A stretch of DNA of 64,000 bases from Promethearchaeota archaeon (GTDB taxonomy: Archaea; Asgardarchaeota; Lokiarchaeia; Sigyniarchaeales; SOKP01). Shown one piece after another: positions 2,482-17,701 of the stretch. How positions within the stretch are numbered: position 1 is the stretch's first letter; every line of letters begins with the position of its first letter. The position numbers and the translations under genes are program-made. The notes beneath the pieces were generated by a model. It was not told the DNA's origin and did not search any database. It saw only the letters and a list, made by a program, of their open reading frames with translations. The DNA lies in NCBI GenBank assembly GCA_019057795.1, contig JAHLWS010000065.1:64001-128000 (forward strand), in the 5' to 3' direction.

Positions 2482-4002
2482 ATGCCTCGAAATAGTTTAG
2501 TTAATCAAGTTATTTTAATTATTATCGATGATGTTCGAGCATCCCATCTTTTTGATTTAATTAAGCAAAAAAAGCTACCTAATATAGCTCAGCTTGCTGA
2601 GAGTGGAATCTCGTGCCAAAATTGTATTACTTCTTTTCCGAGTATTACATTTCCTTGTTATAGTAATATAGTTATTGGATCATATTCAGGATACTTCTCT
2701 ATAGAAGGAAGTGGTATTCCGATGTATCATTGGGTTGGAAGAACCGACCCACCATCGGAAGGGAAAAGATTTCCTATTATTCGAAATTGTGGGAAGGGAA
2801 GTCATATTAGAAAGTTTAATAGTGATTTCGGACCAAATTGTCAAACTATTTTTGAACAGGCAGGAGAAGGAAATTTTTTAAGCTCACTAAATCTTCTTAA
2901 TCGAGGATCTGTAATGATTCCCCCAATCGAATACACCACTCAATCGATATTAAAGGGAGTTGAAGAAATATATAAAGATCCTAAAAAAATCTTTTCAAAC
3001 AAAGAAGTGCCAAAAGTAACAGTTGCTTATATACCTAAAACAGACGACCTTATGCATAAAAAAGGGTTCTCTCATCCAAAATACATTAATGAAATTATTA
3101 AATGCGATGAATCTATTGGCTTAATAATTAAAATGTTAAAGGAAAAGGGGTATTTTGACTCGACTGCTATTGGAATTATTTCGGATCATGGAAATTATAA
3201 AACAGAAAAATTGTATGACATTGAACCTTATTTTAAAGAAAAAGGTCTAATGCAGTACTTACCTAGAAAAGGAATTGGTGATTTCGATGCTAGTTTTGGT
3301 TCAGTTGGATTTTTTAACTTTCCAGGGAAAGATTGGCATCATCATCCAACTACTAAACAATTAAAAGAATTTATTCCAAGCGGTTCAGGAAAGTCGAAAT
3401 TGAATTTATTTGAGACTTTATGGAAGATTCCAGGCGTGAAATTGATGTACTACCGGGACGACAATAACACGCCTGACAAAGGGATAATATATCTGGAACA
3501 GCGGAACGAGAAATCAGGAAAAATTTCAAAAAACATTATTGAATATGAGGGTCATGGAAAAAATCAACGAACGAAATATATCATTGATGAAAAAGATTTA
3601 TACAAATACGAAGACTACGAAGAATCCGCTGTGCTTTTAGATAATAAGGCTCATAATATTGATGAGTGGTTAGAAGGAACGAATAAAATAGATTTTCCAA
3701 TGATAGTAGACCAAATTCCTCGATATTTTAAAAATCCCCGTTCTTGCGATATTATGATATCCACGATTGGCGAATATGGATTTGGTTATGAACATGGGAT
3801 GTCAATGCCTCATTCTCCATACTCTCACGATATAGGACTTAAAAAGTCGATGACTGTGCCATTCATCATTGGAGGGTCTCTAAACATTCCTTCTACGGAG
3901 CTATCGTATTGTAAAACGACGGATATGGTTCCAACGCTCTTAGATTTATTAGGAGAAAAACCACATTTCAGCGTTGTTGGAAAATCTGTATTTAAGTATT
4001 AA
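2482..4002 (+). CDS. Alkaline phosphatase superfamily (nucleotide pyrophosphatase/phosphodiesterase-like) protein
   Basis: IIIDD, FPSITFP (Thr nucleophile), DDLMH, SDHG and C-terminal SH metal ligands. Confidence 0.85.
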   Translation: MPRNSLVNQVILIIIDDVRASHLFDLIKQKKLPNIAQLAESGISCQNCITSFPSITFPCYSNIVIGSYSGYFSIEGSGIPMYHWVGRTDPPSEGKRFPIIRNCGKGSHIRKFNSDFGPNCQTIFEQAGEGNFLSSLNLLNRGSVMIPPIEYTTQSILKGVEEIYKDPKKIFSNKEVPKVTVAYIPKTDDLMHKKGFSHPKYINEIIKCDESIGLIIKMLKEKGYFDSTAIGIISDHGNYKTEKLYDIEPYFKEKGLMQYLPRKGIGDFDASFGSVGFFNFPGKDWHHHPTTKQLKEFIPSGSGKSKLNLFETLWKIPGVKLMYYRDDNNTPDKGIIYLEQRNEKSGKISKNIIEYEGHGKNQRTKYIIDEKDLYKYEDYEESAVLLDNKAHNIDEWLEGTNKIDFPMIVDQIPRYFKNPRSCDIMISTIGEYGFGYEHGMSMPHSPYSHDIGLKKSMTVPFIIGGSLNIPSTELSYCKTTDMVPTLLDLLGEKPHFSVVGKSVFKY

Positions 4003-4151
4003 CCTTATTAATATTTAATTCCATGAAGACCTGAGCCATTTAAACTAAAGAAATTTACCAAATATATTTTGAAATATAATTTCAAAAAGAAATTAAATAT
4101 TAAGTAAAAATTATTTCAATTAATATTAAATTATAAAACCAAGTAATTAAA

Positions 4152-4205
4152 GTGAAAGCTAATAACATAATTATAGTCCCTGAAACTCATTGGGATCGCG
4201 AATAG
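4152..4205 (+). pseudogene. Orphaned diverged copy of alpha-mannosidase exon 1
   Basis: GTG AAA GCT AAT AAC ATA ATT ATA GTC CCT GAA ACT CAT TGG GAT CGC GAA TAG = VKANNIIIVPETHWDRE*, paralogous to MVRANHIIIVPETHWDRE at 5639-5692 with many synonymous differences. Confidence 0.85.
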
Positions 4206-4207
4206 AA

Positions 4208-5467
4208 CTATTTTTGTTGAGATCGAGAGGTTTTTATATCCCATTCCTCACAGAGTTTATAAAAGGAACCAATGGATACTTTAAATTTTTTAATTAAATG
4301 GGAAATTGGATACTTATCAATTAAACATTGTAGATTCTCCTTATTTACTACTGCTTCTTTTAGGCATGGAATCACATTCATATCTCTCTCATTAAATGTT
4401 CTCCTCTTTCTGGGCATACTGTTTTTATAGTTCCTCATCATTTCATTAAATAATAATGCCCCTAATGATAATCTCCAATGTGATTTAGTGGCAATAATAT
4501 TATCAAAATTACTTATTTTACCTTTCTCATATTGAATTTTAACTTCATATTGAATATTTAATTTCAACCTTATTTGTTCGAGAAATTCTTTAGAGCCACT
4601 TGTTATTCTAGTACTGTTAGCATTGCCATCCCCATCATAATAACCAAGAACCCAGGCCAAAAATAACTTATGATTAATAGGAGTTTTTTTATTAAAAATT
4701 ATAGGAATCGATTTTCTTAAAGACTTTGAACTTGAGAACCCAATATTCATTAAATCTTCAACCATTGGTTTACATCTAAAACGCAAATAAGCCAATTGAT
4801 ATGTTCTCCATTCTTCTTTATTTTTCTTTGTTCTATCTCGTTCTTTAATAAGTATAGGATCAAGATTTAGGGCTTTACAAAATCTTATTATTTGATCTTT
4901 ATCCTTAATTGAAAGCTCCATAGATATCAAATACCAAGGTTTTCCCCGATAATCCATTACTACAGAACCGTCTGCGTATAAAAAACCTAACCAATAAGCT
5001 TTTTCAAGTGTATCTACTTTCCTAAAAAAATCAGCTCTAAGATCATCGCTATATTGCTGATTTGAGTATTCTTTCAAGTTTTTATTTAACTCTTGATATC
5101 TTTTAATAAATAATAAACAATTAATTACTTTATTTCCTAAGCTTTTCTTTAGGTTATTTTGGAATTTTTCTAAATTTTGCTCTGAAAATTTGTAATTTGG
5201 ATTATATCCACGAACTTTCGAGTTGGTGATTCTTTGTTTTAGATCTGATAAATAAGTCGATCCATGTCCTAAAAGTATACTAGCTTTGGGTAAAGGTCCT
5301 AACTCATTTACCAAATCGTCTATTAAATTCAAAGTGCTATAAACACTTTCTTTTTTAACAGTCATAATTTGAATATGGAATTGATCTTTATAAACTGAAT
5401 AACATCCATAATTTTTTCTAATATCGTTTCTAATATTCATTCCAATAAGAATTAGGGCTCCAATCAC
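4208..5467 (-). CDS. Double-motif LAGLIDADG homing endonuclease (free-standing; likely start ATG at 5365)
   Basis: Motifs AYWLGFLYADG and LAWVLGYYDGDG; basic composition. Confidence 0.88.
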   Translation of the reverse strand: MIGALILIGMNIRNDIRKNYGCYSVYKDQFHIQIMTVKKESVYSTLNLIDDLVNELGPLPKASILLGHGSTYLSDLKQRITNSKVRGYNPNYKFSEQNLEKFQNNLKKSLGNKVINCLLFIKRYQELNKNLKEYSNQQYSDDLRADFFRKVDTLEKAYWLGFLYADGSVVMDYRGKPWYLISMELSIKDKDQIIRFCKALNLDPILIKERDRTKKNKEEWRTYQLAYLRFRCKPMVEDLMNIGFSSSKSLRKSIPIIFNKKTPINHKLFLAWVLGYYDGDGNANSTRITSGSKEFLEQIRLKLNIQYEVKIQYEKGKISNFDNIIATKSHWRLSLGALLFNEMMRNYKNSMPRKRRTFNERDMNVIPCLKEAVVNKENLQCLIDKYPISHLIKKFKVSIGSFYKLCEEWDIKTSRSQQK

Positions 5468-5638
5468 GCATTCAAGGTCTTTTATACATAGAAATTAGAA
5501 AACTTATTTAGTTGATATTCACCCTCTTGGGCAGCTTAAATATTGTATTATTCCTCTCTTTTCAGCAAGTAAGCAATATAAAACATCAAAAATTATGAGT
5601 ATTAAACTATGAAAAAGAAAAAAAGATGATAAAAGACT

Positions 5639-8464
5639 ATGGTGAGAGCAAATCATATAATAATTGTTCCTGAGACCCACTGGGACCGTGAAACTTTGTA
5701 TAATTAATATACAAAGCACGATTGGTATCTCCCGTTTCAAGAGTATAGAGCAAAACTAGTTCTCATGATGGATAAGCTCTTGGATATCCTAAGAAGCGAT
5801 CCAGATTATAAAAATTTCACTCTTGATGGACAAACTATTCCGATAGAGGACTATCTTGAAGTCCGACCTGAATTTGAAGATGAGATTAAAAAGTATGTAA
5901 AAGAAAGGCGGCTTTCGATTGGGCCTATGTATATTTTACCAGATGAATTTTTGGTAAGCGGCGAATCTTTGATTAGGAACTTAATAATTGGACACCAAAT
6001 TGCTAAGAGATTTGGAAGGGTTATGAAAGCAGGTTACATCCCTGATCCTTTTGGCCACATTGCTCAATTACCTCAAATACTTCAAGGATTTGAAATCCCT
6101 TCGATTTTATTCTGGCGAGGGTTTGGTAACGAATTCGTAGAAAATAACCTAAACATTGAATTTATTTGGAATTCCCCCGGAGATTCTAATTCTATTTTGG
6201 GAATATTTTTGAAGCAGAGCTACGGTTCGGTTGCTGATCTTAATTTATCAAAAAGAAGCGGAAAATATAAACTGGCGCTTCATAAGATAAAAAGGGTTGT
6301 TTCTGAGTTCGAAAAATTCACAGCTACATCCTATGTTCTTTTGAATAGCGGTTCAGATCATCACGAAGCTCGATCGGAGATTCCTGAAATAGTTAGACAA
6401 TGGAACGAAATGTATCCCGAGAAACTTTTAGAACAAAACGATTTTGAATATTATGTCGATAAAGTATTACATAGTAATCCACAGTTAAAACAGTTTAAAG
6501 GCGAATTAAGAGGTGGAAAGTACGCACATCTACTTTCAGGGGTATTTTCAGCTCGTATGTGGATCAAGCAGAGAAACACGGCAATCGAATATCTGTACGA
6601 AAAATATACGGAACCCTTATCAACAATTATATGGTCTCTCGATAAATATAAGGAATTTAATTACCCTCAAGCTTATATGCTCACAGGTTTGAAATGGCTT
6701 ATCAAAAACCACCCTCACGATAGCATATGTGGCTGTTCTATTGATCAGGTTCACAAAGAAATGGAGACTAGGTTTGATTGGGCGGAGCAAATCGGTAATG
6801 AAGTGTTTAAAAATTCAATATTGTATCTATACAATCTGATTACAGTTGAGGAAGACGAGAAAAAAATTCCGATCGTAGTATTTAATCCTCTTCCTTGGAA
6901 ACGTAAAGATATCGCAAATTTCCACATAATATCCAACACTAAAAAAGCTGGTTTTAAAAATCCAGACGCTTTCAAAATTCTCGACTCCGAAGGAAACGAG
7001 ATCGCATACCAATACGTTCAAATCAGCGAAGAGCCAAGATATAGATTAATTGGATCGGTTAGTTATTATTGCTCGTTTTTAGCCGAGGTTCCTGCTTGTG
7101 GATATAAGTGTTATTATATCGTACCAGGAGAAAAACCCGAAGAACCTGTAGTAAAGAGTAAAAAATTGAAGTTAGGTATAAATAGCTTAGAAAATCAGTT
7201 CTACAAAATCAACATAAGTTTTAAGGGACAAATCGACGTTTTAGATAAGGAAAGTAAAGTTTTGTACGAAAATATTTGTTATTTTGAGGATATAGGAGAT
7301 TGGGGGGATGAATATGACTTTTCGGGGCCATATGAAAATCAAACTGATTTAAAATTCACCTCAGAAGATCTGAATATTCTAGAAATAGCACCGTTTTTAG
7401 ACGGGGTCACCCAAAAAACGATTAGAATAAGAGCAAATCTCAATTTACCTACTTCTTTAACCGAGGATAGATATAGTAGAGACGAATATCTGATTTCAAA
7501 CTTAATCGATATCTATATAACGGTATATAAGGACATTAAACGAGTTGATTTTAAGATTGAATTAGAAAACAATAGTAAAGACCACCGAATACGAGTACTT
7601 TTTCCTTCAAAAATTAAATCTAAAAATGTAGATTCCGATGGTCATTTTTATGTCATTTCGCGAGATGTTGAGATGCCAAAATCTGAGAAATGGGCTCAAC
7701 AACCCGTACCTACTAACCATCAGAAAGATTTTGTCTCTGTTAACGATACATCAAGAACTTTTTCGGTTATAAACAAAGGATTACCCGAATATGAGGCAGT
7801 TATAAATAAAGATGGAACGATTTCGCTAGCTATTACCTTACTGCGGTGTATTGAATGGCTTTCAAGACACGATTTTACCTCGAGAAGAAGTAACGCAGGT
7901 CCGGACCTAAATACTCCCGAAGCTCAATGTCTTGGAAAGCATACTTTCGAACTTTCTCTCGTTATCGAAGGAAACAAACCTAATTGGTTAGATTCGAACG
8001 CTCACATAAAAGGTAAAGAATTTAACAATCCTTTTGAGGTTGTGGTTCCCTCGATAGTTAGAACCTCAATAAGAGCTTCGAATAAAGTCGTTTTAGCCCC
8101 TTTTGGACTAATTTCATATTTTAAACCATCAACTCGTCAACCTTTAAAACCTTATTTACCTACCAAATTAAGCTTCCTTGAAATCGATAACACAAAAATA
8201 ATGCTTAGTGCTTTGAAAAAATCGGAAAAGGGAGAATCTTTAATCGTTAGAGTTTATAACATCTCTTCAACCACTCAAAAAGCAAGGTTAACGTTACACG
8301 AGAAAACTTCCATCAAAAGTGCGGATATTGTAAACTTTTTGGAAGAAAAGCCAGAAAACGAAATTAAGGCGAAAATTGTTTCAAGTAAAGGGAATCATCT
8401 TGATCTAACTCTGGAACCGCACATAATAGTAACGATAAAACTTGAGCTTGATAATAATTATTAA
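5639..8464 (+). CDS. GH38 alpha-mannosidase / mannosylglycerate hydrolase-like, spliced: join(5639..5692,5723..8464), 931 aa
   Basis: Spliced N-terminus PETHWDREWYLPF (Zn-binding HxD motif), FTLDGQ, GYIPDPFGH nucleophile motif, HPHDSICGCS. The ORF-track version (5765 start) lacks the essential HWD motif. Confidence 0.9.
5693..5722 (+). other. 30-nt BHB-type intron in the alpha-mannosidase gene
   Basis: CGTG-AA^A-CTTTGTATA-ATTAA-TATACAAAG-CACG-AT^T: 4-bp central helix, two 3-nt bulges, perfect 9-bp inner stem; contains in-frame TAA; removal gives CGT GAA TGG TAT (REWY). Confidence 0.85.
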
Positions 8465-8613: not shown

Positions 8614-9747
8614 GTGAAAAATTTTGATATTATTGTTATAGGCGCAGGACCAGGAGGTTCTGTTGCAGCTAAAGTAGCCTCTGAAAACGGATATTCGACT
8701 TGTATCATTGAAAAAGAAATGCTTGGTGAGAAAGGAAGATATAAGGCATGTGGAGGAGCTACTGCGTGGGAACTAATAGAAGAAATTGATTACCCAGAAG
8801 AAAAAATTGGTAGGGTAATTGAATCTTTAGAATTGCACCATGTTGATGGAGAAACTTATTCTAAAAAAGGTAAAGGCGCTGTCGTTTGGCGAAGCACTTT
8901 TGATAAGTTTTTAACTGACATGGCTGTCGATAGTGGAGCCTTATTAAAAGAGAAAGAGCTTATGATTAACATTGAAAAAGTTGATGATTTTTACAAAATC
9001 AGTACTAATAAAGATAAATATACTGCAAAATATATAATTGCCGCTGATGGCGTTACTTCACCTACTTTAAAATTGCTAAATTGGCCTTTTTTCAAAAGTG
9101 AAGACTTAATTTTAACTATTACTAAAGAGATGAAAACTACTAAGTCCAATATAGATAAAGTTCTTGGACATGATACAGTTCATTTGTTTTTTGGTATTGA
9201 AAGCCTTATTCGTGTTGGTTATGCTTGGTTGTTTCCAAAAACTGAGAGGATTACAGTAGGATGGGGTAATCAAATTAATTTAGTAAAAAATTCAAGAGAA
9301 GAATTTAAAAAATTTCTAAAGCTCCCACTTGTTAAACTAGCGTTAAACAATTCAACGATGGAAACCTTTAAACCTCATCTAATCCCAGTAGGACTTAGAT
9401 CGAAGCTTTATGAGGAGAATCTGTTTGCTGTGGGTGATTCAGGGGGAATCGTTGATCCTATAAGCGGAAAGGGAATTCCCTATGCCATGATGTCTGGTCA
9501 GTTTGCTATTGAAACTATTAAAATGTGCGAAGAAAAAGATAGAATGGATAGGTTAGGAAGTTATTATGAAAGATCTTTAGATAGAAAGTTTTTAAAAATA
9601 TTAAAGGCAAAACGGATTTTAAGAGACACCATTTTTCAAAGTGATGAAAATTTGAAGAAATTCTTATCGTTGTGGGAAAACCATCGTAGTTCAGAAATTG
9701 CCATGAAAAATTTAATGGATCAAGTGAGTCTATATGAAATTTACTGA
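8614..9747 (+). CDS. Geranylgeranyl reductase family FAD-dependent oxidoreductase
   Basis: GAGPGG Rossmann motif, ACGG, AADG, YAWLFPK, VGDSGG...PISGKGIPYAM. Confidence 0.88.
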   Translation: MKNFDIIVIGAGPGGSVAAKVASENGYSTCIIEKEMLGEKGRYKACGGATAWELIEEIDYPEEKIGRVIESLELHHVDGETYSKKGKGAVVWRSTFDKFLTDMAVDSGALLKEKELMINIEKVDDFYKISTNKDKYTAKYIIAADGVTSPTLKLLNWPFFKSEDLILTITKEMKTTKSNIDKVLGHDTVHLFFGIESLIRVGYAWLFPKTERITVGWGNQINLVKNSREEFKKFLKLPLVKLALNNSTMETFKPHLIPVGLRSKLYEENLFAVGDSGGIVDPISGKGIPYAMMSGQFAIETIKMCEEKDRMDRLGSYYERSLDRKFLKILKAKRILRDTIFQSDENLKKFLSLWENHRSSEIAMKNLMDQVSLYEIY

Positions 9748-10801
9748 ATATTTGAGTTTTTATAAACCTAAGATAAACGATGCAATAGCATTAATCTATA
9801 ATAGACAATTAAAAGAAGTAAAAAATTCGTTCTTAAAAGTCTATTATTCAGAATTACGCGACTATTTTTTAACGGGAGGAAAGAGAATCCGTCCTTTGCT
9901 TTGTATCGCTACTTATAACGCTTTTAGTGGAAAACAAAATGACGACATTATCTTTCCAAGCGTTGGTGTCGAATTTCTACATAACGCTACTTTAGTCCAC
10001 GATGACATTATTGATAAGGATAATTTTAGACGAGGAAAACCCGCGTTTCATTATAGATTTAGGCAATTTCACATAGAAAATAGCCTTAAAAAAATATCAG
10101 CTGAAGATTATGGTAATTCGATAGGCATTATTGGGGGAGATTCCGCATTTTTTCTAGGTCTTGAAGCTTTTTTTTTTAACAATTTTGATAATAACTTTAA
10201 TCTCAGAGCAATTCAATATTACGAACATGCTTTTAGAGAAATAGTAAATGGAGTTTTGATTGAAATTGATATGGTAAACAAGAAAAATCTAAAAATGGAA
10301 GATTATATTCATATGGTTTCTCTTAAAACGGGAGCTTTACTAGAAAAATCAATATTAATCGGTGCTAATTACGCTAAAGTGGAAGAAAAATATAAGTCAT
10401 ATTTATCGATTTATGGAAAAAACTTAGGAATTATATTCCAGATAATAGACGATATTTTAGGGACCTTTGGTGACGAAACAACAACGGGAAAACCAATAGA
10501 CGGAGATATTAGAGAATCTAAAAAGACATGTTTATTGATAGAAGCCAATAATATGTTAAAAGGAAACGAAAAAATCAGACTCAATGAATTAATCGAAAGC
10601 ATTAATATGACTCAAGATGAAGTTCAAGAAGTAAGAGAATTGTTTCTTAAAGCAGAAGTCATTAATCATAGTAAAAAGCTAGCAGAGACTTATTATAAAG
10701 AAGCTCAAATTGCCCTTGAAAAATTAAAGCCAGTAATTCACAATTCAGAGTTAGAGTTTTACGAAAACCTATTAAAATTTGTATTAGAAAGAAAATTTTA
10801 A
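9734..10801 (+). CDS. Geranylgeranyl diphosphate synthase (trans-polyprenyl synthase)
   Basis: GGKRIRP, LVHDDIID...RRGKP, KTG, FQIIDDILG, DIRESKKT. Confidence 0.92.
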   Translation: MKFTEYLSFYKPKINDAIALIYNRQLKEVKNSFLKVYYSELRDYFLTGGKRIRPLLCIATYNAFSGKQNDDIIFPSVGVEFLHNATLVHDDIIDKDNFRRGKPAFHYRFRQFHIENSLKKISAEDYGNSIGIIGGDSAFFLGLEAFFFNNFDNNFNLRAIQYYEHAFREIVNGVLIEIDMVNKKNLKMEDYIHMVSLKTGALLEKSILIGANYAKVEEKYKSYLSIYGKNLGIIFQIIDDILGTFGDETTTGKPIDGDIRESKKTCLLIEANNMLKGNEKIRLNELIESINMTQDEVQEVRELFLKAEVINHSKKLAETYYKEAQIALEKLKPVIHNSELEFYENLLKFVLERKF

Positions 10802-16734: not shown

Positions 16735-17701
16735 TCATCCTATCATTGTTCTCCAGGCGTCATAGCCTTCTTTTTCGATAGCCTTGGCGATAGATTCTTG
16801 TATTTCTTCATTTTCTGCTAAAGCGATTACTAAACCACCCCGACCCGTCCCCGTCATTTTAGCTCCAACCGCTCCATTTTTTAGTGCTATTTCTACCAAT
16901 TTATCGTTTATTTCTCCTGAAACTGTGATTCTTTGAAGTAATTTGTGGTTTTGATTCATTAATTTGCCTATAGTGGTAATATCACCTTCAAGCAATGCTT
17001 TTTTTGCTTTTTCTGATAAATCCTTATATTCGTTTAGTATCTTCTCAAATTCTTCTGAATTAGTTTCCTTTAAACGCCGAACATCAGCAACTACTTCCGT
17101 TGTTGAAGCTGTTATTCCTGAATTTGCGATTGTCAAGAGCATCTTTCTTGGCGATTGAAGGAAGTCCATCGTATTTTTTCCACCACTTAAATTTTTCACA
17201 AACCAAATCAAACCACCATAAGTCGAAGCCGTGTTATCAATACCAGAAGGGGTTCCGTGATAAGCCTTCTCTCCTTCGTAAGCGGCTTCGTTTATCTTTT
17301 CATCGTCTAACTTTAGATTAAAGCTATCGTTGATTGCACGAGCGAGAGAAGTACATTGAGCGGCAGAAGCACCAACTCCACTCGTAGCGATTAAATCTCC
17401 TGTGAAAGTGATTTCAAGTTTTTGACTCTCTGTATCTATTTTTAAATAATGGACTACATTGCGAATAGATTGCATTGCCTCATCGTATTTCTTTTTTTTA
17501 TAACCCGGTGTAGCGGGTCTCTGATCGTCGACAGTCCAGTTTTGTCCATTAACAACTTTAACATCTGCGGTTGTATAGGAACCTAATGCCGAAGCAATAG
17601 CGGGAAGACCATAAACTACAAAATGATTGCGTCTACTTCCGAAGTTGGAAGTAAATTTCGCCAAAAAGAATGGTCTTACCATATCCTTTTCCAGTTCCCG
17701 T
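16735..17701 (-). CDS. mvk: Mevalonate kinase, spliced: complement(join(16735..17625,17657..17701)), 311 aa, ACG at the start position
   Basis: Spliced N-terminus GTGKGYGKTILFGEHFVVYGLPAIA; GVGASAA, HGTPSGIDN, GAKMTGTGRGG GHMP motifs. Confidence 0.9.
17626..17656 (-). other. 31-nt BHB-type intron in mvk
   Basis: Minus strand GGCG-AA^A-TTTACTTCC-AACTTC-GGAAGTAGA-CGCA-AT^C: 9-bp inner stem (one G-U), central helix of 3 bp plus G.A, two 3-nt bulges; removal gives GGC GAA CAT TTT (GEHF). Confidence 0.83.

What the first reader, a model, noticed from the sequence alone, without database searches (positions are those of the whole stretch)
5687..5725. tRNA-type (BHB) intron inside the GH38 alpha-mannosidase coding sequence
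Seen: the conserved HWDREWY motif is split after GAA by 30 nt containing an in-frame TAA. The region folds as CGTG/CACG (4 bp) with 3-nt bulges AAA and ATT around a perfect 9-bp stem CTTTGTATA/TATACAAAG. The outer helix is imperfect (C-G, then GGGA/TCCC after a bulge). Established: archaeal splicing endonuclease EndA cuts after the second nucleotide of each bulge, and the well-characterised archaeal mRNA example is cbf5 in crenarchaea. Applying that rule gives exactly CGT GAA TGG TAT (R-E-W-Y). Inference: this is a spliced mRNA intron in a metabolic gene of a probable Asgard archaeon, which gene callers misannotate as an N-truncated protein.
Basis: partly seen in the sequence, partly recalled or inferred. 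Interest (0 to 1): 0.95.

Follow-up and report, generated by a model that had tools for sequence, protein, structure and literature searches.

The report
tRNA-type mini-intron in Asgard mannosidase gene
A 30-base insert shaped like an archaeal tRNA intron splits the catalytic motif of a sugar-cutting enzyme gene in a Loki-type Asgard archaeon; relatives show it must be cut out of the mRNA, and it travels with a selfish DNA-cutting-enzyme gene next door.

Summary
Observation confirmed. Window 5693-5722 (30 nt, in-frame TAA) splits HWDRE|WY of a GH38 alpha-mannosidase. It forms a textbook bulge-helix-bulge (BHB) motif. Cutting after the second base of each bulge rejoins the frame exactly.

No RNA read covers the junction, so splicing rests on comparison:
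- 24 other Asgard orthologues carry a 29-30 nt insert at the same codon boundary.
- All nine inner-stem pairs and one central-helix pair show compensatory changes.
- Exon codons that pair with the intron are frozen: CGT-GAA in 24/25 with the insert, 4/49 without.
- Exon 1 stays under purifying selection and exon 2 stays full length, even with 29-nt (frameshifting) inserts.
- The genome encodes two EndA paralogues and RtcB.

New here: the intron is the seam of a 1520-bp homing cassette. The native exon 1 survives as a stump (4152-4202). An antisense LAGLIDADG endonuclease gene follows (4208-5467), then a replacement exon 1 (5639-5692) and the intron. The endonuclease gene occurs in 11/25 intron-bearing loci and 0/49 intronless ones, and its tree disagrees with the host gene's.

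In the papers I could search, only cbf5 is documented as an archaeal BHB-spliced coding gene. This scan has already noted similar mini-introns and nuclease cassettes elsewhere in this genome.

The parts
2482..4002 (+). Upstream neighbour (type I phosphodiesterase/sulfatase-like). In most relatives it lies directly next to GH38, which marks the ancestral gene order.
   Evidence: Pfam PF01663. tblastn synteny in about 45 loci.
4152..4205 (+). Orphan native exon 1 (VKANNIIIVPETHWDRE, 4152-4202), ending at the same E codon as the working exon 1. It is followed by TAG (4203-4205).
   Evidence: Differs at 1 nt from the real 5' end of the intronless sister L001. L001 aligns to window 2657-4201 and then directly to 5719-8161.
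4208..5467 (-). Free-standing double-motif LAGLIDADG homing-endonuclease gene (419 aa), antisense to GH38.
   Evidence: Pfam LAGLIDADG_3 in 7/7 orthologues, best E 5.4e-11. Two invariant motifs with acidic residues. AF2 model pLDDT 74.7. All top Foldseek hits are LAGLIDADG enzymes; I-DmoI TM 0.6.
5468..5638 (+). Cassette-borne upstream region of the working GH38 start. It presumably holds the promoter and 5' UTR (A/T-rich TATA-like boxes); this was not tested.
   Evidence: Absent from the intronless sister L001. Sequence read.
5639..5692 (+). Replacement exon 1 (MVRANHIIIVPETHWDRE). Its last codons GAC CGT GAA supply the outer pair and the 5' strand of the central helix.
   Evidence: 13 of 51 nt differ from the orphan copy. 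pN/pS 0.17 among intron-bearing loci.
5687..5690 (+). Central BHB helix, 5' strand (CGTG, exon).
   Evidence: Pairs with 5717-5720. 99% of cells paired in 24 distinct sequences, with one compensatory U-A to C-G change.
5691..5693 (+). Bulge 1 (AAA). The predicted 5' cut lies between 5692 and 5693.
   Evidence: Cut rule from PMC2738675.
5693..5722 (+). The 30-nt BHB mini-intron, with in-frame TAA. Inner helix 5694-5702 pairs with 5708-5716; loop 5703-5707.
   Evidence: All 9 inner pairs show compensatory changes.
5717..5720 (+). Central BHB helix, 3' strand (CACG, intron).
5721..5723 (+). Bulge 2 (ATT). The predicted 3' cut lies between 5722 and 5723.
5723..8464 (+). Exon 2 of GH38 alpha-mannosidase (WYLPFQ... 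to stop, 913 codons). Gene callers instead start at the ATG at 5765.
   Evidence: PF01074, PF09261, PF07748, PF17677.

Best explanation
**The intron.** Window 5693-5722 is a 30-nt bulge-helix-bulge intron in the pre-mRNA of a GH38 alpha-mannosidase of a Promethearchaeota (Loki-type Asgard) archaeon.

**Inferred mechanism**
1. The transcript starting upstream of 5639 folds so that exon CGTG pairs with intron CACG.
2. The two-subunit splicing endonuclease EndA cuts after the second base of each 3-nt bulge (after 5692 and after 5722).
3. RtcB ligates the exons.
4. The result is an mRNA for a 931-aa enzyme (18 + 913 codons) with the metal-binding HWDREWY motif restored.

**The cassette.** The intron is the downstream seam of a 1520-bp homing cassette (4203-5722). 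The cassette sits exactly at the E|W codon boundary of the ancestral gene and consists of an antisense free-standing LAGLIDADG endonuclease gene, a new upstream region, a replacement exon 1 and the intron. The genome's own exon 1 is left behind as a stump.

**Inferred role of the intron.** The endonuclease cuts the uninterrupted HWDRE|WY coding site of cassette-free alleles. Repair copies the cassette, or only the intron if the short exon-1 copy is used for pairing. The intron splits the target at the DNA level and so gives immunity, while RNA splicing keeps the host gene working.

**Shown:** anatomy, conservation, covariation, cassette structure, presence/absence pattern, incongruent trees.
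**Inferred:** excision in vivo, endonuclease target, direction of spread.
**Separate odds:** spliced BHB intron about 0.87; mobile cassette about 0.75; intron acting as the target-splitting immunity seam about 0.5.
For: **Anatomy and frame restoration:**

**Comparative evidence for the BHB**
- 25 orthologous loci carry a 29-30 nt insert at the identical site.
- 95.4% of cells are paired, against 30-61% when partners are slid.
- 10 pairs show compensatory changes: all 9 inner-stem pairs plus one central-helix pair.
- 0 of 500 shuffles reach the observed values.

**Exon codons that pair are frozen**
- CGT-GAA: 24/25 with the insert, 4/49 without (Fisher 2.7e-14).
- GAC: 25/25 versus 17/49.
- Leu CTY in the outer helix: 23/23 versus 13/24 (p = 2e-4).

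**The gene is alive**
- Every intron-bearing locus with enough contig has an exon-2 ORF of 907-920 aa and an intact exon 1 with a start codon.
- Exon-1 pN/pS is 0.17, against 0.22 in intronless genes.
- Two loci have 29-nt inserts that would shift the frame if not removed. L085 has a complete exon 2; L084 is cut by the contig end.

**Machinery**
- Two EndA paralogues of about 200 aa, each with N-terminal and catalytic domains, plus RtcB.
- Asgard EndA is reported as the broad-specificity (alpha-beta)2 type with the L1 loop (PMC5829648).

**Cassette**
- Orphan exon 1; also seen in L090, L094, L097 and L101.
- The endonuclease gene is in 11/25 intron-bearing loci and 0/49 intronless loci (Fisher 1e-6).
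- Searching from the endonuclease instead, 3/3 orthologues in same-genus genomes lie beside an intron-bearing GH38.
- The fold is LAGLIDADG.

**Mobility**
- Intron presence needs at least 17 changes on the gene tree (13 forced by well-supported branches), no better than shuffled labels.
- Window versus L094: GH38 96% identical, endonuclease 56%, intron 7/30 different. L094 versus L100: endonuclease 71%, GH38 60%.
- Intron divergence is nearly uncorrelated with host divergence (Spearman -0.13).
- The L090 endonuclease gene is frameshifted, as expected late in a homing cycle.
Against: - No RNA evidence. The only public runs holding this gene carry contigs of intronless relatives (GAT CGC exon type, 90-96% identical), so nothing crosses this junction.
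- The outer helix is weak: one pair, a 5-nt internal loop, then four pairs. Minimum-free-energy folding prefers a slightly different pairing.
- The alignment used for pair counts was fitted to the model, and related sequences inflate shuffle tests.
- L100 has a C-U mismatch in the central helix.
- A strict genome-wide BHB scan showed no excess of frame-rescuing candidates over offset controls. It therefore gives no independent support that mRNA splicing is common in this genome.
- The endonuclease's target and activity are untested.
- Four endonuclease-bearing loci lack a recognisable orphan exon.
- Synonymous sites flanking identical introns are only slightly more alike than distal ones: 0.64 versus 0.54, against 0.53 versus 0.48 in controls. 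Co-conversion tracts are therefore not demonstrated.
- A second, divergent GH38 paralogue exists at a contig edge (C2:11358-12191, 47% identical). This gene is therefore not the genome's only GH38.
Confidence: 0.82

Rival explanations
1. The gene was killed by the cassette insertion. The 30 nt is merely the cassette end or a hairpin. If anything is made, it is an N-truncated protein from the ATG at 5765.
For: - Gene callers choose this reading.
- The unspliced frame has a stop codon.
- There is no RNA proof of splicing.
- A second GH38 paralogue exists.
Against: - Exon 2 is full length in every locus with enough contig.
- Exon 1 is kept under purifying selection, pN/pS 0.17.
- BHB pairs are maintained by compensatory changes, also in 14 loci that have lost the endonuclease gene.
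- The truncated protein would lack the invariant HWDRE motif. From my own knowledge of GH38 structures, its His and Asp bind the catalytic metal. The motif is conserved in the solved homologue shown aligned, 3LVT.
Confidence: 0.05
2. The insert stays in the mRNA and is skipped by the ribosome (programmed translational bypassing, as in phage T4 gene 60) or by another recoding event.
For: A stable hairpin follows the take-off position. In two loci (L049, L084) the insert ends in GAA, matching the last exon-1 codon.
Against: - In 23 of 25 loci the would-be landing codon (GAT, GAG or GAC) does not match GAA.
- No stop codon follows the take-off codon.
- Covariation includes the exon-intron 4-bp helix and fixed 3-nt bulges. 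This is what EndA needs, not what bypassing needs.
Confidence: 0.03
3. The intron is spliced but is an old, vertically inherited feature lost many times. The LAGLIDADG gene next door is an unrelated insertion, or a domesticated regulator, that does not mobilise it.
For: - The intron sits at one site with recognisably similar sequence in 24 of 25 loci.
- 14 intron-bearing loci have no endonuclease gene.
- Flank co-conversion is not clearly shown.
- cbf5 shows lineage-specific intron loss (PMC2738675).
Against: - The endonuclease gene is never seen without the intron (0/49), and 3/3 orthologues found independently sit beside it.
- The orphan exon shows that endonuclease gene, exon 1 and intron arrived as one 1520-bp insertion at the intron site.
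- Endonuclease and intron similarity are incongruent with the host gene.
- Both states occur inside one 90%-identity protein cluster.
Confidence: 0.12
4. The working transcript starts at the native promoter. A giant 1520-nt BHB intron (4203-5722, holding the antisense endonuclease gene) is spliced from the orphan exon 1 to exon 2.
For: The orphan exon ends at the same codon, and its CGCG could pair with CACG in 3 of 4 positions.
Against: - The pairing has a C-A mismatch in the central helix.
- The replacement exon 1 is the copy with the matching CGTG, and it is the copy under codon constraint in all 25 loci.
- Four endonuclease-bearing loci have no orphan exon.
Confidence: 0.03

Closest known systems
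BHB intron of the cbf5 pre-mRNA in Desulfurococcales and Sulfolobales (Watanabe 2002; Yoshinari 2006; Yokobori 2009, PMC2738675)
   Same: - A protein-coding archaeal gene is interrupted by a short BHB intron.
- Cuts fall between the 2nd and 3rd bulge bases.
- The host has a heteromeric, relaxed-specificity EndA.
- Presence and absence are patchy among relatives.
   Different: - A different phylum (Asgard) and a metabolic gene.
- The intron is only 29-30 nt.
- Gain and loss are far more frequent: at least 13 changes among 71 orthologues.
- It is physically linked to a homing-endonuclease cassette.
- cbf5 splicing has cDNA and enzyme proof; this case has none.
Archaeal rRNA/tRNA BHB introns that encode LAGLIDADG homing endonucleases (for example I-DmoI, I-Tsp061I)
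   Same: A BHB intron is combined with a double-motif LAGLIDADG enzyme, and the site lies in a highly conserved sequence. The model of the 419-aa protein matches I-DmoI (TM 0.6).
   Different: - Here the endonuclease gene is outside the intron, antisense, about 225 bp upstream.
- The intron is too small to encode anything.
- The host gene codes for a protein.
- The cassette carries a replacement gene start.
Collaborative or trans homing in phages: a free-standing endonuclease beside an endonuclease-less group I intron (F-CphI/psbA, PMC6083498; mobE/I-TevIII, PMC2790892)
   Same: A free-standing nuclease gene lies next to an intron that lacks its own nuclease. The proposed target is the intron-less insertion site, and intron and nuclease are found together or the intron alone.
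   Different: - The intron is a protein-spliced BHB intron, not a self-splicing ribozyme.
- The nuclease family is LAGLIDADG.
- The host is an archaeal chromosome.
- A duplicated gene end is part of the unit.
- Cleavage is untested here.
WHO elements of Torulaspora/Lachancea yeasts (Coughlan 2020, PMC7282813) and fungal mitochondrial endonuclease ORFs that bring a replacement gene end
   Same: A homing nuclease inserts into a conserved metabolic gene. It supplies a diverged replacement gene end so the host gene keeps working, and the old end is left as a stump.
   Different: - The 5' end is replaced, not the 3' end.
- The seam is an RNA-spliced mini-intron rather than a direct in-frame fusion.
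- The organism is an archaeon.
HAC1/XBP1 unconventional mRNA splicing (IRE1 plus tRNA ligase/RtcB); from my own knowledge, not checked here
   Same: A very short intron (26 nt in XBP1) is removed from an mRNA by a protein endonuclease and the tRNA ligase, independently of the spliceosome.
   Different: The endonuclease is different (IRE1, cutting twin stem-loops), and that splicing is regulatory. Nothing here indicates regulation.

Membership tests
Archaeal BHB (EndA-type) intron | [quoted passage not shown] | tested here: met
   CGTG/CACG with AAA and ATT. In 24 distinct orthologous sequences the central helix is 99% paired, with G-C/G-U alternation and one compensatory change. Bulge lengths are fixed.
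Archaeal BHB (EndA-type) intron | Flanking helices h (exon side) and h' (intron side) | tested here: met
   h' has 9 bp, and all 9 pairs covary. h is relaxed: one C-G pair, a 5-nt internal loop, then GGGA/UCCC. It is still supported by codon constraint: GAC 25/25, CTY 23/23.
Archaeal BHB (EndA-type) intron | Cutting after the 2nd base of each bulge yields a functional joined product | tested here: met
   The cuts give GAA|TGG and restore HWDREWYLPF, identical to about 100 uninterrupted homologues. The same holds for the 29-nt variants.
Archaeal BHB (EndA-type) intron | The host encodes the splicing endonuclease and RNA ligase | tested here: met
   Two EndA paralogues (PF01974 + PF02778) and RtcB (PF01139) in the same assembly.
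Archaeal BHB (EndA-type) intron | The intron is actually excised from the RNA | tested here: inconclusive
   The RNA runs found hold only contigs of intronless relatives. Nothing covers this junction.
GH38 alpha-mannosidase | Glyco_hydro_38N, middle and C-terminal domains, with the N-terminal H-x-D metal motif | tested here: met
   Four Pfam GH38 domains in exon 2. The first 13 profile positions, including HWD, are supplied by exon 1. The motif aligns to the solved GH38 structure 3LVT; 5KBP and 2WYH are also matched over the same N-terminal residues. Substrate not tested.
LAGLIDADG homing endonuclease (free-standing) | Two LAGLIDADG helices with acidic catalytic residues in an alpha-beta-beta-alpha-beta-beta-alpha double domain | tested here: met
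   Invariant ..LGFLYADG.. and ..LGYYDGDG... Pfam LAGLIDADG_3 in 7/7. Foldseek top 50 hits are all LAGLIDADG enzymes or inteins.
LAGLIDADG homing endonuclease (free-standing) | Presence/absence polymorphism at one site, and a phylogeny incongruent with the host | tested here: met
   Three states among 74 loci, never the endonuclease gene without the intron. Clean 1520-bp indel against sister L001. Identity of endonuclease versus host is incongruent.
LAGLIDADG homing endonuclease (free-standing) | Site-specific cleavage of the cassette-free allele | not testable with these tools
   Needs a cleavage assay.

The most novel reading that the evidence does not exclude
A previously undescribed composite mobile element: a free-standing LAGLIDADG endonuclease homes into the most conserved codons of a protein-coding gene. 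It brings a replacement gene start plus a 30-nt EndA-spliced mini-intron. The intron's role is to split the nuclease's target at the DNA level while the host's tRNA-splicing enzymes repair the message. [quoted passage not shown]
Probability: 0.5. Interest if true: 0.92.

Novelty: new variant of a known kind. Interest (0 to 1): 0.85.

Why it matters
- Protein-spliced (BHB) introns in archaeal coding genes are documented in the papers I could search only for cbf5. A 2026 preprint on Asgard introns treats tRNA genes only.
- This case shows the phenomenon in a metabolic gene of an Asgard archaeon, with unusually deep comparative support.
- It ties the intron to a homing cassette. That gives a testable route by which introns enter and leave coding genes in the lineage nearest to eukaryotes.
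- Practically, about a sixth of database orthologues are called N-truncated without their catalytic motif. Annotation pipelines for Asgard genomes need a BHB-aware step.

Tried and rejected
1. **RNA evidence.** The look-up of sequencing runs returned six runs with small shares. I laid four. All contigs were 90-96% identical relatives whose 5' ends read ...CATTGGGATCG + CGA.TGG, the intronless allele type. They say nothing about splicing here.
2. **Genome-wide BHB scan of my own** (56,543 loose candidates). The number of ORF-rescuing candidates equalled offset controls (2054 versus 2022-2132; strict set 41 versus 31-36). I rejected the method. It also missed the mevalonate-kinase intron because that central helix has a G-A mismatch.
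3. **Co-conversion test** on synonymous sites flanking near-identical introns. There is only a slight excess, not decisive.
4. **Endonuclease paralogues in the own genome** (C78, C54, C43). No strict BHB plus frame rescue lies beside them. They sit in long open frames and may be inteins.
5. **Search for a spliced-form protein** with the cassette-type N-terminus in the 90% cluster of P0002. None was found, only native full-length and N-truncated forms.
6. **Rfam and ARAGORN on the window.** Nothing found.
7. **Sequence-only PDB profile search with the endonuclease alignment.** Only weak I-CreI/I-DmoI hits (E 0.04-0.6). The fold search settled the question.
8. **Assembly artefact.** Rejected, because the insert recurs in 24 other independent assemblies.
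Full report
**1. Observation**

- An ATG at 5639 opens MVRANHIIIVPETHWDRE, ending with GAA at 5690-5692.
- The next 30 nt (5693-5722) contain an in-frame TAA.
- From 5723 the frame reads WYLPFQ... for 913 codons to the stop at 8464.
- Pfam places the long part in GH38: N-terminal, middle and two C-terminal domains. The N-domain match begins only at profile position 14, so the first 13 positions are missing. Exon 1 supplies them.
- The mechanical ORF list starts the gene at the ATG at 5765.

The insert has the canonical order of a bulge-helix-bulge motif.
- An outer helix comes first.
- The 4-bp helix is CGTG (5687-5690) paired with CACG (5717-5720).
- The bulges are AAA (5691-5693) and ATT (5721-5723).
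- The inner helix has nine perfect pairs, 5694-5702 with 5708-5716.
- Cutting between the second and third bulge residues is the rule stated for cbf5 (PMC2738675). It joins GAA to TGG.

The outer helix is weak, and free-energy folding alone is unremarkable (z = -2.45). However, in the whole 4.95-Mb assembly only 17 sites have a motif this strict, and this is the only one with a G+C-containing central helix.

**2. Comparative evidence that the insert is removed from the RNA**

Database homologues.
- The 120 best homologues are Promethearchaeota/Lokiarchaeota and other Asgard proteins.
- Most are 926-930 aa and begin MKANHIIIVPETHWDREWYLPFQ.
- About 21 begin at MMDKLL, as the mechanical ORF here does. 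One begins MKHDWYLPF, which is the reading out of the intron's 3' end.

Orthologous loci.
- Fetching loci from species-representative genomes gave six more with a 30-nt insert at exactly the same codon boundary.
- An unbiased-codon pattern scan of metagenome contigs gave 18 more, two of them with 29 nt.

Pair counts on a model-based alignment of the 25 (24 distinct).
- 95.4% of cells are paired, against 30-61% when partners are slid by 1-3 columns.
- Ten pairs have changes on both sides: all nine of the inner stem and one of the central helix.
- The central-helix case is L084, where exon CGCG faces intron CGTG.
- None of 500 shuffles reaches the observed values.

The exon side of the motif is frozen only where the insert is present.
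- CGT-GAA: 24/25 versus 4/49 (Fisher 2.7e-14).
- Asp GAC: 25/25 versus 17/49.
- Leu CTY in the outer helix: 23/23 versus 13/24.

The interrupted genes are alive.
- Every locus with enough contig has an exon-2 frame of 907-920 codons and an intact exon 1 with a start codon.
- Exon 1 evolves with pN/pS 0.17, as in uninterrupted genes (0.22).
- A 29-nt insert cannot be tolerated by read-through, yet L085 keeps a complete gene.

The assembly encodes the needed enzymes.
- It has two EndA paralogues of about 200 aa, each with N-terminal and catalytic domains, and RtcB.
- This fits the (alpha-beta)2 broad-specificity enzyme reported for Asgard archaea (PMC5829648).

**3. What I could not show**

There is no RNA proof. 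The runs that hold this gene contain only contigs of relatives with the uninterrupted allele.

**4. The surroundings change the picture**

The endonuclease gene.
- The ORF directly upstream and antisense (4208-5467, 419 aa) hits Pfam LAGLIDADG_3.
- Its orthologues keep two invariant LAGLIDADG motifs.
- All seven tested hit the family, best E 5.4e-11.
- A model (pLDDT 74.7) matches only LAGLIDADG homing enzymes. These include the archaeal intron-encoded I-DmoI, TM 0.6.

Its distribution.
- tblastn over all fetched loci found this gene beside GH38 in 11 of 25 intron-bearing loci and in none of 49 intronless Asgard loci (Fisher 1e-6).
- Starting from the endonuclease instead, its three orthologues in 18 same-genus genomes all lie beside an intron-bearing GH38.

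The insertion.
- The conserved gene order is phosphodiesterase then GH38.
- Against the closest intronless relative L001, the window aligns at 2657-4201 and then directly at 5719-8161.
- Window 4152-4202 is therefore a second, orphan copy of exon 1. It is one base different from L001's real 5' end, stops at the same Glu codon, and is followed by TAG.
- The inserted unit is 4203-5722 (1520 bp): endonuclease gene, new upstream region, replacement exon 1 (13 of 51 nt different from the orphan) and the intron.
- Orphan stumps are also present in L090, L094, L097 and L101. I did not find them in L011, L038, L092 or L100.

**5. Mobility**

- On a tree of 71 orthologues, intron presence needs at least 17 changes (13 forced by well-supported branches). 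This is no better than shuffled labels.
- The window's own 5-member clade holds four intron-bearing genes and one intronless gene.
- Both forms occur inside one 90%-identity protein cluster.
- Endonuclease and intron similarity disagree with host similarity:
  - window versus L094: GH38 96%, endonuclease 56%, intron 7/30 different;
  - L094 versus L100: endonuclease 71%, GH38 60%;
  - L026 and L039 share an identical intron at 74% protein identity.
- One endonuclease gene (L090) is frameshifted.
- The three observed states are empty, intron only, and intron plus endonuclease. The absence of endonuclease without intron is what a homing cycle predicts.
- Intron-only alleles can arise in two ways. 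Repair may pair on the short replacement exon 1, or recombination between the two exon-1 copies may delete the endonuclease gene. Both are inference.
- I could not demonstrate conversion tracts.

**6. Mechanism proposed**

- **Well supported by comparison, not observed:** the pre-mRNA is cut by EndA at the two bulges and sealed by RtcB.
- **Inferred:** the endonuclease recognises the uninterrupted HWDRE|WY coding site. That site has little synonymous freedom (two Trp codons). The intron splits the site in DNA and so protects cassette carriers, while the host keeps its enzyme.

**7. Comparison with what is known**

The closest published cases are listed under Closest known systems:
- the cbf5 intron;
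- archaeal rRNA introns with internal LAGLIDADG genes;
- collaborative homing in phages (PMC6083498, PMC2790892);
- gene-end-replacing WHO elements (PMC7282813).

The combination here was not found in four literature searches. It consists of a BHB mini-intron used as the seam of a 5'-end-replacing LAGLIDADG cassette, in a protein-coding gene of an Asgard archaeon.

Earlier notes of this scan report similar mini-introns and nuclease cassettes elsewhere in this genome. I verified one of them by reading: the mevalonate kinase intron at window 17621-17661 on the minus strand. It joins GKTILFGE to HFVVYG, and its 31-nt BHB has a relaxed central helix.

**8. Verdict**

- The finding extends to a composite mobile element.
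- Novelty: a new variant of known kinds.
- Interest is high.
- The missing piece is direct RNA and enzyme evidence.

Noticed in passing
window 17621-17661 (minus strand): A second mini-intron in this window: a 31-nt BHB-like insert in mevalonate kinase. Removing it joins ...GKTILFGE to HFVVYGLPAIA. The central helix is relaxed (GGCG/CGCA with a G-A mismatch), and the bulges are AA|A and AT|C.
   Followed up: partly
G000 contig C2:11358-12191 (+): A second GH38 paralogue, 47% identical, uninterrupted (..PHTHWDREWYQTF..). It is cut by the contig end and resembles the Chloroflexota-type sequences. The assembly has 7.5% estimated contamination.
   Followed up: partly
L084:783-852 (-): A 29-nt insert at the same site whose sequence is unrelated to the other 24. 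The exon has CGCG and the intron CGTG, which is compensatory in the central helix. This may be an independent origin. Its sister L010 has no insert.
   Followed up: partly
L026 / L039, introns at locus positions 1552-1581: The 30-nt introns are identical although the GH38 proteins are 74% identical, and flanking third codon positions are only about 56% alike. This is unexplained by vertical descent.
   Followed up: partly
L090:9709-10849: The LAGLIDADG gene beside GH38 is split by a frameshift (two tblastn pieces), so it is a decaying endonuclease copy. The orphan exon 1 in this locus runs two codons (WY) past the usual end.
   Followed up: partly
P0127 (member of the 90% cluster of P0002): A gene call starting MVKANQHDWYLPF. 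It appears to read out of the 3' end of yet another intron variant.
   Followed up: no
whole genome G000: ARAGORN finds only 28 tRNA genes, 15 of them with a predicted intron, in an assembly rated 100% complete. Many tRNA genes are probably too interrupted to be called. This fits the 2026 preprint on Asgard tRNA introns.
   Followed up: no
18 same-genus genomes: Many distant paralogues (32-42% identical) of the LAGLIDADG protein lie at other places in this genus, several inside open frames of 450-1150 aa (possible inteins). The family is expanded in this genus.
   Followed up: no
window 8614-10801 (+): Directly downstream of GH38 lie an FAD-dependent (geranylgeranyl-reductase-like) oxidoreductase and a polyprenyl synthetase. 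These are lipid-pathway genes, not a glycan-use cluster.
   Followed up: no
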